Below, piece by piece: positions 47,365 to 48,279 of a stretch of 64,000 nt of DNA. A program made the translations under genes and the position numbers. The DNA is from Styela clava (Eukaryota). The notes beneath the pieces were generated by a model. It had not been told where the DNA came from and did not search any database. It was given only the letters and a program-made list of their open reading frames with translations. Location: NCBI RefSeq assembly GCF_964204865.1, contig NC_135254.1:17794001-17858000 (forward strand). Direction: 5' to 3'. Numbering within the stretch: position 1 is the stretch's first letter; every line of letters begins with the position of its first letter.

Positions 47365-48279
47365 TTATTCCGTCAAAGCTCGACAAAATCTTAACCATCG
47401 GCCACTTCGGGTTTTCTGAAAAGAAGTATTACAATTAGACACAATTAAAAAAACATAAGCAATAGCTCGATTTAACGTCATTCGCATTCTATATCCTGAC
47501 GCAATCGATATAGCCACGGGTGTAGCATGGTCATATCGTCGAAACGTAGTCGATAGCTCATCGCAGAAATTTATGGTGATTATGGTACTAGTACTTGTAT
47601 GCATTATCAATAAATAATTTTCTTGGCAATAATAAATGCTTCTTTCTAAAACATGGAATAAAAGCAATTTTTATAATAGTGGGGCCAATGTTCTGATTCA
47701 TCAAATGTCATAATCGAATAAAAGCAAGCTTGAGATTGGAAGCAGCCTTATGTCTTCTGTTATGTTACAACTGATAGGTATGCGAATTGCCAATCAGATA
47801 TTTAACAAAGATTCTCGGGCATGAGCATGCATATTCTAATAGGTTTATATTAATAGTATTTTAAAACAGATAAATAGTACTGACATCTTCATGTTTGTAT
47901 CCGCAATATTGACTGGTTCTTTCCTTGCGCCAACCATTGATATCTCGGACGATTGTTTCGTCGTGACAGCAAGCATTGTATCCTGGTTCGCACTCTGTAC
48001 GGTAGCAGTACAATCCGGTTTGTCTGAACAAAACATCAAAATTGAAATTGAAAAATGAATAACGAGTCTATTGATAAATATATATAGTAATAATGATATT
48101 CACATCAAAAATATACATATGGAATGGTGTATTAATAAAACGTATAACTGACATTAGGAAAAAAACATCCTCTCACAGATTTGGAACCATATATAGCTTA
48201 GGCAATTAAAAGCATTGTAGTCTACTTACACAGAAGTACTCACGACAATACAAACGATAAACATCAGTAACACCTTCAT
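47365..48279 (-). CDS. Small secreted cysteine-rich peptide, 79 aa (six Cys in the predicted mature region)
   Basis: Exons 48279-48230 (GT|gtaagt), 48023-47885 (ttgttcag|, |gtcagt) and 47415-47365 (cttttcag|), intron phases 2 and 0. Protein: MKVLLMFIVCIVVSTSVQTG-LYCYRTECEPGYNACCHDETIVRDINGWRKERTSQYCGYKHEDKTRSGRWLRFCRALTE*. Confidence 0.75.

What the first reader, a model, noticed from the sequence alone, without database searches (positions are those of the whole stretch)
47365..48279. Hidden 3-exon gene for a small secreted six-cysteine peptide next to the lectin cluster
Seen: the gene is not in the ORF track as one protein, but strong splice sites join a signal-peptide exon to a 59-aa mature peptide starting LYCY. 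Its Cys spacing is C-x4-C-x6-CC-x20-C-x16-C and it has a basic, aromatic tail (KTRSGRWLRFCR). Inference: the LxCY start directly after the signal and the C-x-x-G-x-x-x-C segment recall three-finger/Ly6 proteins, but the terminal CCxxxxCN motif is missing. It could be a reduced three-finger fold or a new antimicrobial or toxin-like peptide. It lies 1.5 kb upstream of copy E on the same strand, which suggests an immune or secretory neighbourhood.
Basis: partly seen in the sequence, partly recalled or inferred. Interest (0 to 1): 0.7.

Follow-up and report, generated by a model that had tools for sequence, protein, structure and literature searches.

The report
Orphan six-cysteine sea-squirt secreted peptide
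A sea squirt has a real, spliced, single-copy gene for a small six-cysteine peptide that is predicted to be secreted and has no relative in the collections searched; it is possibly a stripped-down three-finger (Ly6-type) protein that likely binds other proteins outside cells, and its function is untested.

Summary
The gene is real. Exons 48279-48230, 48023-47885 and 47415-47365 (minus strand) give a 79-codon frame with Cys spacing 4-6-0-20-16. Contigs of 6 of 6 RNA-type runs laid join intron 2, and 4 of 6 join intron 1; 0 of 2 genomic runs do. Those four read Ala, not Val, at residue 17, so the mature peptide more likely has 62 residues and starts Gln-Thr-Gly, not LYCY. Neighbouring collectin-like genes identify the host as Styela clava. 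No paralogue or homologue was found. Exon 2 is predicted to be a three-stranded sheet with a long hairpin. It is not an LU/three-finger family member: six Cys, no CCx4CN, intron phases 2 and 0, no profile match. Its N-terminal core does resemble this genome's own LU exons (1 of 5000 shuffles), but its hairpin does not (2839 of 5000), and granulin scores too. Best reading: a secreted protein-binding mini-protein from a reduced three-finger domain (0.45). A lytic antimicrobial peptide is less likely (net charge +2). The link to the lectin looks incidental.

The parts
48375..48382 (-). TATA-like element about 40 nt upstream of the furthest 5' contig end (inferred core promoter)
   Evidence: motif scan; function untested
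48280..48337 (-). 5' leader, no upstream ATG; 48337 is the furthest contig end, not a mapped start
   Evidence: (X2 record 10)
48230..48279 (-). Exon 1 coding part: ATG and predicted signal peptide (residues 1-16 and two bases of codon 17); base 48230 differs between the window (Val17) and 4 of 4 RNA-type runs that cross it (Ala17)
48024..48229 (-). Intron 1, 206 nt, GT..AG, phase 2
   Evidence: joined in X1, X2, X4, X5
47885..48023 (-). Exon 2: five of the six mature Cys; predicted strand, then a long beta-hairpin with its turn at Ile-Asn-Gly; variants Thr40 (silent, X5) and Ile45Leu (X10)
47416..47884 (-). Intron 2, 469 nt, GT..AG, phase 0
   Evidence: joined in 6 of 6 RNA-type runs laid
47365..47415 (-). 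Exon 3 coding part: 16 residues, basic and aromatic, sixth Cys, stop; no CCx4CN, no hydrophobic anchor signal, no amidation Gly
47229..47364 (-). 3' untranslated part with AATAAA starting at 47254; contigs end at 47229-47290
44220..45825 (-). Neighbour, not part of the gene: collagen plus lectin-like copy E (RefSeq LOC120344055), an inverted duplicate of copies A-D; lower end approximate

Best explanation
This is a spliced, single-copy Styela clava gene for a 79-residue precursor that is predicted to be secreted as a roughly 62-residue, three-disulfide beta-sheet mini-protein, likely derived from a three-finger (Ly6/uPAR) domain that lost finger I, and likely acting by binding an extracellular or cell-surface protein through its long hairpin. 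Shown: the gene, its splicing, the six Cys and the absence of a detectable second copy. Predicted: the strands and hairpin of exon 2. Inferred: signal cleavage after residue 17; Cys1, 2, 3, 5 correspond to LU cysteines 1, 4, 5, 6 (bonds 1-3 and 2-5); finger I has shrunk from 15-20 residues to 4; the new Cys4 pairs across strands with Cys6 on the exon-3 strand, replacing LU bonds 7-8 and 9-10; the Trp-Arg-Lys hairpin tip and the basic aromatic last strand form the binding face.
For: Splicing. Hydrophobic residues 3-14, mean Kyte-Doolittle 3.3, after Met-Lys. Exon-2 model: pLDDT 74.7, strands 2-7, 18-27, 30-40; the turn at 28-29 and lone bridges at 15 and 43 imply a register that sets Cys3 opposite Cys5 (read from the DSSP line, not from coordinates), as for LU cysteines 5 and 6 (recalled). 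The genome has its own LU genes (7 PF00087 matches; 17 PF00021 matches). In 13 of 13 LU exons compared, six residues separate LU4 and LU5, as here; the Cys-anchored core beats 4999 of 5000 Cys-fixed shuffles, and 4968 of 5000 without the LxCY flank. Gene layout is signal exon plus two exons, as for LU genes (PMC6600238, passage). In 5 of 5 local LU exons that hold LU6-LU7, a predicted phase-0 donor follows 11-12 codons after LU6; here a phase-0 intron follows 6 codons after Cys5. Three coding variants were resolved (two conservative, one silent) and no indel was listed in the exons.
Against: No Pfam family at E up to 10, while a true LU exon of this genome hits PF00087 at 2e-06. hhalign probability 1.3%. 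Pairwise scores against 7 LU exons are not significant (P 0.15-0.81). HMM scores 6.0 bits, P 0.015 but 3.7 bits, P 0.115 with corrected exon ends. The hairpin, the one part not used to frame the idea, scores as chance (2839 of 5000). The anchors were chosen after seeing the motifs, and 14 near-identical granulin half-repeats also score (P 0.018). Intron 1 is phase 2, against predicted phase 1 in 14 of 17 local LU loci. Loss of bond 7-8 destabilises single LU domains (PMC6600238, passage), and this reading also loses bond 9-10. No intermediate form was found (one search returned two ordinary LU fragments). No binding partner or activity is known.
Confidence: 0.45

Rival explanations
1. A lineage-specific disulfide mini-protein unrelated to LU domains: a C-C-CC-C-C scaffold of independent or de novo origin (mini-granulin-like, knot-like or colipase-like geometry) that likely serves as a secreted binder or signal.
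For: No homologue in 5.8 billion clustered proteins of 37-119 aa, only 3 repeat-inflated hits among 1.84 billion representatives, none among solved structures or metagenome contigs (0 of 81 candidates). Granulin control scores P 0.018. Hairpin unlike LU loop 2. Intron 1 is phase 2.
Against: The peptide itself is absent from the protein collection, so small unannotated relatives could be absent as well. The LxCY flank matches LU (P 0.003) and not granulin (P 0.24). A 20-residue loop between Cys4 and Cys5 is long for a cystine knot (recalled).
Confidence: 0.3
2. A host-defence peptide that would bind or disrupt microbial surfaces through the basic, aromatic C-terminal strand, whatever the origin of its fold.
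For: Residues 64-79 hold 5 Lys/Arg, 1 acidic and 2 aromatic residues. The gene sits beside five collagen-lectin genes that earlier RefSeq names call surfactant-protein-A-like or collectin-12-like. S. clava makes antimicrobial peptides (PMC10608444, passages).
Against: Whole mature peptide: 11 basic, 9 acidic, pI 8.3, GRAVY -1.15. The S. clava peptides named in that review (styelins, clavanins, clavaspirin) are linear and helical. The gene is single-copy and lies outside the duplicated lectin unit.
Confidence: 0.2
3. A spliced non-coding transcript whose short frame is not translated or not selected.
For: No protein record, no homologue, so no cross-species test of selection.
Against: First ATG of the transcript, no upstream ATG, signal-peptide anatomy, an even number of mature Cys, a frame that stays open over two introns of different phase, and only conservative or silent coding variants among those resolved.
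Confidence: 0.05

Closest known systems
Ly6/uPAR (LU, three-finger) domain proteins, Pfam PF00021 and PF00087, including this genome's own LU genes (L044-L067)
   Same: Secreted size class; signal exon plus two exons; Leu-x-Cys-Tyr start; six residues between the Cys matching LU4 and LU5; long hairpin after it; phase-0 intron after the hairpin as predicted for five local LU genes.
   Different: Six Cys, not 8-10; 4 residues where LU has 15-20 (finger I); an extra Cys right after the LU5 equivalent; no CCx4CN end; intron 1 phase 2; no profile match.
Two-finger (2FTX) fold: Drosophila Argos (PF11581) and conotoxin Tx33.1 (PMC12236594, parts 1-4 of 9 read)
   Same: Precedent for a three-finger-like fold with a finger missing. 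Three of the four N-terminal Tx33.1 bonds (6-30, 22-42, 36-69) run in the order 1-3, 2-5, 4-6 that I infer here.
   Different: Spacing of those six Cys is 15-7-5-5-26, against 4-6-0-20-16. 2FTX overlays the first two fingers, whereas this peptide would lack finger I. The paper found no Argos-like protein in deuterostomes, and PF11581 has no match over cut-off in this genome.
Granulin N-terminal half (PF00396) and mini-granulins
   Same: C-x-C-x-CC followed by a hairpin; anchored score P 0.018 against this genome's granulin repeats.
   Different: Six rather than five residues before CC; one CC only; 20-residue hairpin; no Pfam match.
Inhibitor cystine knot peptides, C-C-CC-C-C order (recalled)
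   Same: Order of the six Cys.
   Different: Loops of 20 and 16 residues after CC; the exon-2 model does not suggest a knot; connectivity untested.
S. clava antimicrobial peptides styelins, clavanins, clavaspirin (PMC10608444, passages)
   Same: Same species, small, secreted.
   Different: Those are linear helical peptides; this one is disulfide-rich, beta-stranded and only weakly cationic.

Membership tests
Ly6/uPAR three-finger domain | 8-10 Cys in the ancestral disulfide pattern | tested here: not met
   six mature Cys; pattern from PMC6600238 passages
Ly6/uPAR three-finger domain | C-terminal CCx(3-5)CN with the last disulfide | tested here: not met
   absent in exon 3; present downstream in local LU loci L044, L047, L048, L049, L064
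Ly6/uPAR three-finger domain | Profile match (PF00021, PF00087, PF16975) | tested here: not met
   0 families for exon 2; control exon L045 hits PF00087 at 2e-06
Ly6/uPAR three-finger domain | Three beta-hairpin fingers from a disulfide core | tested here: inconclusive
   only exon 2 was folded; no three-finger entry listed, but none for the control LU exon either
Ly6/uPAR three-finger domain | Leu-x-Cys start and LU4-x6-LU5 spacing | tested here: met
   six-residue gap in 13 of 13 local LU exons and in the peptide; anchored score reached by 1 of 5000 shuffles; anchors chosen after seeing the motif
Ly6/uPAR three-finger domain | Signal exon plus two domain exons | tested here: met
   layout from PMC6600238
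Ly6/uPAR three-finger domain | Phase-1 introns, the second at the tip of loop 2 | tested here: not met
   phases 2 and 0, second intron after the hairpin; five local LU genes also have a predicted phase-0 intron after the hairpin
2FTX / Argos fold | Profile match PF11581 | tested here: not met
   no Pfam hit for the peptide's exons; 2 sub-threshold matches elsewhere in the genome
2FTX / Argos fold | Two hairpins with conserved disulfide positions | not testable with these tools
   needs the full-length spliced peptide, which was not folded
Granulin (PF00396) | Twelve Cys with four CC doublets | tested here: not met
   one CC, six Cys; no Pfam hit; 12-Cys pattern recalled
Inhibitor cystine knot | C-C-CC-C-C order | tested here: met
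   family pattern recalled
Inhibitor cystine knot | Bonds 1-4, 2-5, 3-6 forming a knot | not testable with these tools
   needs disulfide mapping or a full-length structure
Styelin/clavanin-type antimicrobial peptides | Linear, helical, strongly cationic mature peptide | tested here: not met
   beta strands predicted; 11 basic against 9 acidic residues; family description from PMC10608444 passages
Styelin/clavanin-type antimicrobial peptides | Antimicrobial activity | not testable with these tools
   bench assay needed

The most novel reading that the evidence does not exclude
A free-standing three-finger derivative in a chordate that has lost finger I and the whole C-terminal CCx4CN cap and is held by only three disulfides, one of them a new cross-strand bond: the smallest working LU core, and a route to a two-finger fold different from Argos and the conotoxin 2FTX proteins.
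Probability: 0.35. Interest if true: 0.65.

Novelty: new variant of a known kind. Interest (0 to 1): 0.4.

Why it matters
At the least it is an expressed sea-squirt gene that the searched protein collections lack, one more small secreted peptide hidden by short exons. If the reduced three-finger reading holds, it would show that a single LU domain can fold without bonds 7-8 and 9-10, which a review of the family treats as needed (7-8) or constant (9-10), and it would give a compact disulfide scaffold and a tunicate data point: a 2026 survey of invertebrate three-finger proteins covered no tunicate and kept only domains of 60 residues or more (PMC13719153, parts 1-2 of 4 read). Without relatives, a structure or an activity, this stays a lead.

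Tried and rejected
Origin from an inverted gamma-glutamyltransferase exon: the only other hit of exon 2 in the genome (E 0.0126, 42% over 33 aa) lies antisense to a PF01019 exon. Nucleotide identity, 54 of 99, equals what the protein match alone gives (null mean 53.6), the flanks are at background, and the peptide's opposite frame has no Pfam hit: rejected as chance. Paralogues: DNA search 1 match, itself; pattern CY-x3-C-x6-CC 77 matches, of which 36 others were read in fetched loci and none looked like a paralogous exon; five-Cys spacing pattern 93 matches, 31 distinct examined, 7 open with at most 9 Cys, none similar (best P 0.115); the other matches were judged only from the listing. Flanks of 20 kb on each side hold no copy. 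Fold searches with the exon-2 model: best Z 3.8 (rmsd 3.5, 43 aligned) among 48,161 chains, no Foldseek match at E 0.001, no three-finger entry listed; the control LU exon also listed none (best Z 2.8), so this says nothing either way. No run is on record as RNA ('no RNA holder listed'); the RNA label is a guess that the spliced joints bear out. Contigs of X2 and X4 cover the peptide exons but not lectin E, X7 covers both, and no contig joins the two genes: a weak hint against co-regulation, not evidence. The Atlas look-up gave no result. In some searches and 64 locus L047 was anchored on the wrong Cys pair; one search corrects this and its numbers are the ones quoted for LU. Of 17 LU loci, 13 were used in the anchored tests; L055, L058, L063 and L067 were left out as near-copies. 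Some other letters in the exon-3/3' pieces of the contigs were counted but not listed by the tool, so exon-3 variants are not resolved. Paper searches (listings only) showed no title or abstract start on this gene; subscription papers and supplements were not searched. Earlier scan notes hold nothing on this place or sequence.

Full report
Observation. On the minus strand the window holds an ATG at 48279, a perfect GTAAGT donor after 48230, an acceptor before 48023, a GTCAGT donor after 47885 and an acceptor before 47415. Joined, the three exons (50, 139, 51 nt) give 79 codons and one stop. The six Cys after the signal are spaced 4, 6, 0, 20, 16, and the introns are in phases 2 and 0. A seventh Cys lies inside the signal peptide.

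Transcription. Twelve runs were listed, none on record as RNA; I laid eight. Contigs of all six RNA-guess runs (three study codes) skip exactly intron 2, and four also join exon 1 to exon 2; the two genomic-type runs cover the introns without a joint. Contigs reach 48337 at the 5' end and 47229 at the 3' end, about 20 nt past an AATAAA. All four runs that cross intron 1 carry a different base at 48230, so residue 17 is Ala; both genomic contigs match the window's Val. An allele is the simplest reading, since those runs differ at other places too; editing cannot be excluded without matched DNA. Other resolved coding variants are a silent Thr40 and Ile45Leu.

Processing. Residues 3-14 are strongly hydrophobic (mean 3.3). 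The mature form is therefore more likely 62 residues, about 7.5 kDa, starting with Gln. It has 11 basic and 9 acidic residues, pI 8.3, GRAVY -1.15, no N-glycosylation site and no anchor signal. Only the last 16 residues are clearly cationic.

Host and neighbourhood. The neighbouring genes match Styela clava RefSeq proteins at 77-100%; older records name them surfactant-protein-A-like or collectin-12-like. Four copies lie on the plus strand and copy E is an inverted duplicate whose similarity to the others ends near 46213; nothing in 47200-48400 is repeated in the window. The peptide gene is thus outside the duplicated unit, 1540 bp from the ATG of copy E. Adjacency alone does not show an immune role.

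Relatives. None was found: own genome by protein, DNA and two Cys patterns; 5.8 billion clustered proteins of 37-119 aa; 1.84 billion representatives, three repeat-inflated hits only; Pfam; PDB sequences; metagenome contigs, 0 of 81 candidates. The peptide itself is missing from the protein collection, so these blanks are weak for small unannotated genes of other ascidians, whose genomes I could not search. The one borderline genomic hit is antisense to a gamma-glutamyltransferase exon and was rejected as chance.

Fold. Only exon 2 was folded. The single-sequence model (pLDDT 74.7, pTM 0.37) has strands at 2-7, 18-27 and 30-40. The turn at 28-29 and lone bridges at 15 and 43 imply a register with Cys3 opposite Cys5 (my reading of the DSSP line). 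Fold searches gave only generic three-stranded matches (best Z 3.8). A true LU exon of this genome treated the same way also retrieved no three-finger entry, so the test is inconclusive.

Three-finger test. The genome has its own LU genes. In 13 of 13 compared, six residues separate LU4 and LU5, as between Cys2 and Cys3 here, while LU1 to LU4 spans 15-20 residues against 4. With the Cys fixed, the anchored core score is reached by 1 of 5000 shuffles, and by 32 of 5000 without the Leu-x-Cys-Tyr flank; the hairpin alone is reached by 2839 of 5000. The anchors follow the motifs that prompted the idea, and granulin half-repeats also score (P 0.018), so the signal is partly generic; the LxCY flank is the LU-specific part (P 0.003 against 0.24). 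Local profiles are unstable (P 0.015; P 0.115), hhalign gives 1.3%, and pairwise scores are not significant. A review gives LU genes a signal exon plus two exons with phase-1 introns and calls bond 7-8 essential for single domains (PMC6600238, passages and part 2 of 9). Here the exon count fits and intron 1 does not (phase 2; predicted phase 1 in 14 of 17 local LU loci). Intron 2, phase 0 six codons after Cys5, resembles five local LU genes with a predicted phase-0 donor 11-12 codons after LU6. A mixed alignment found no intermediate form. The peptide fails membership; descent from the family stays open.

Mechanism. I commit, at 0.45, to a secreted mini-protein built on a reduced LU core. Inferred steps: bonds 1-3 and 2-5 as in LU; Cys4, one residue after the LU5 equivalent, bonds to Cys6 on the exon-3 strand that would lie beside it (strand neighbours recalled from three-finger structures); finger I is collapsed; the hairpin tip with Trp-Arg-Lys and the basic aromatic last strand bind a protein target, as loops of LU domains generally do (PMC6600238, passage). 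A precedent for losing a finger is the 2FTX fold of Argos and conotoxin Tx33.1, three of whose N-terminal bonds run in the same order, but with other spacings, with fingers I and II kept, and reported from protostomes only (PMC12236594, parts 1-4 of 9); PF11581 has no match over cut-off in this genome. Rivals: an unrelated lineage-specific scaffold (0.3), a defence peptide acting on microbial surfaces (0.2; the S. clava peptides in PMC10608444 passages are linear and helical), a non-coding transcript (0.05). A toxin in the venom sense is not expected in a filter feeder (own knowledge).

Novelty and verdict. Six paper searches listed nothing on this gene (listings only), and a 2026 survey of invertebrate three-finger proteins included no tunicate (PMC13719153, parts 1-2 of 4). 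Earlier notes of this scan report ordinary secreted three-finger families elsewhere in this genome, unchecked. The gene is real and apparently undescribed; its fold origin and function are unproven. Interest 0.4; 0.65 if the three-disulfide, finger-I-less LU reading (0.35) is true.

Noticed in passing
window 24260-46213: Five collagen plus lectin-like gene copies (four plus, one inverted), 77-100% like S. clava RefSeq 'uncharacterized' proteins; the full copy-E protein hits only Pfam Collagen, not Lectin_C, so the lectin-like domain is very divergent. A sixth partial first exon lies at 40748-41026 (34%).
   Followed up: partly
window 34647-34947: The second exon of the lectin copy at 33.8-35.4 kb aligns in two frames, which suggests a frameshift; RefSeq lists a 121-aa LOC120344054 that may be this copy.
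   Followed up: no
window 48230: All four RNA-type runs crossing intron 1 differ from both genomic contigs at the last base of exon 1, at the likely -1 position of the signal peptide (Val or Ala): an allele that could shift the cleavage site, or editing.
   Followed up: partly
L002 1426-1617 (G000:C9 near 10476100): Gamma-glutamyltransferase exon whose antisense frame is open and 42% like exon 2 over 33 aa; judged chance.
   Followed up: yes
G000:C16:14565893-14653566: Tandem cluster of at least 9 LU-domain exons, several nearly identical.
   Followed up: partly
L044, L045, L046, L047, L064: These ascidian LU exons run on past LU6 and LU7 to a predicted phase-0 donor, unlike the phase-1 intron at the tip of loop 2 described as typical; not checked with RNA.
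   Followed up: partly
G000:C19:12355432-12401204: A progranulin-like locus with 46 granulin profile matches (half-domain exons) over 46 kb, far more repeats than usual (the usual count is recalled).
   Followed up: no
L042 4562-5845 and L041 2108-7055: An intact-looking 428-aa Tc5/DDE_1 transposase frame just before the window, and an OATP transporter gene after it.
   Followed up: no
window 15726-16475 and 60359-60746: A 370-bp tandem duplication at 99.5% identity, and a short tandem repeat with open frames on both strands.
   Followed up: no
window 48258-48324: A short X5 contig folds back on exon 1, most likely a library artefact.
   Followed up: no
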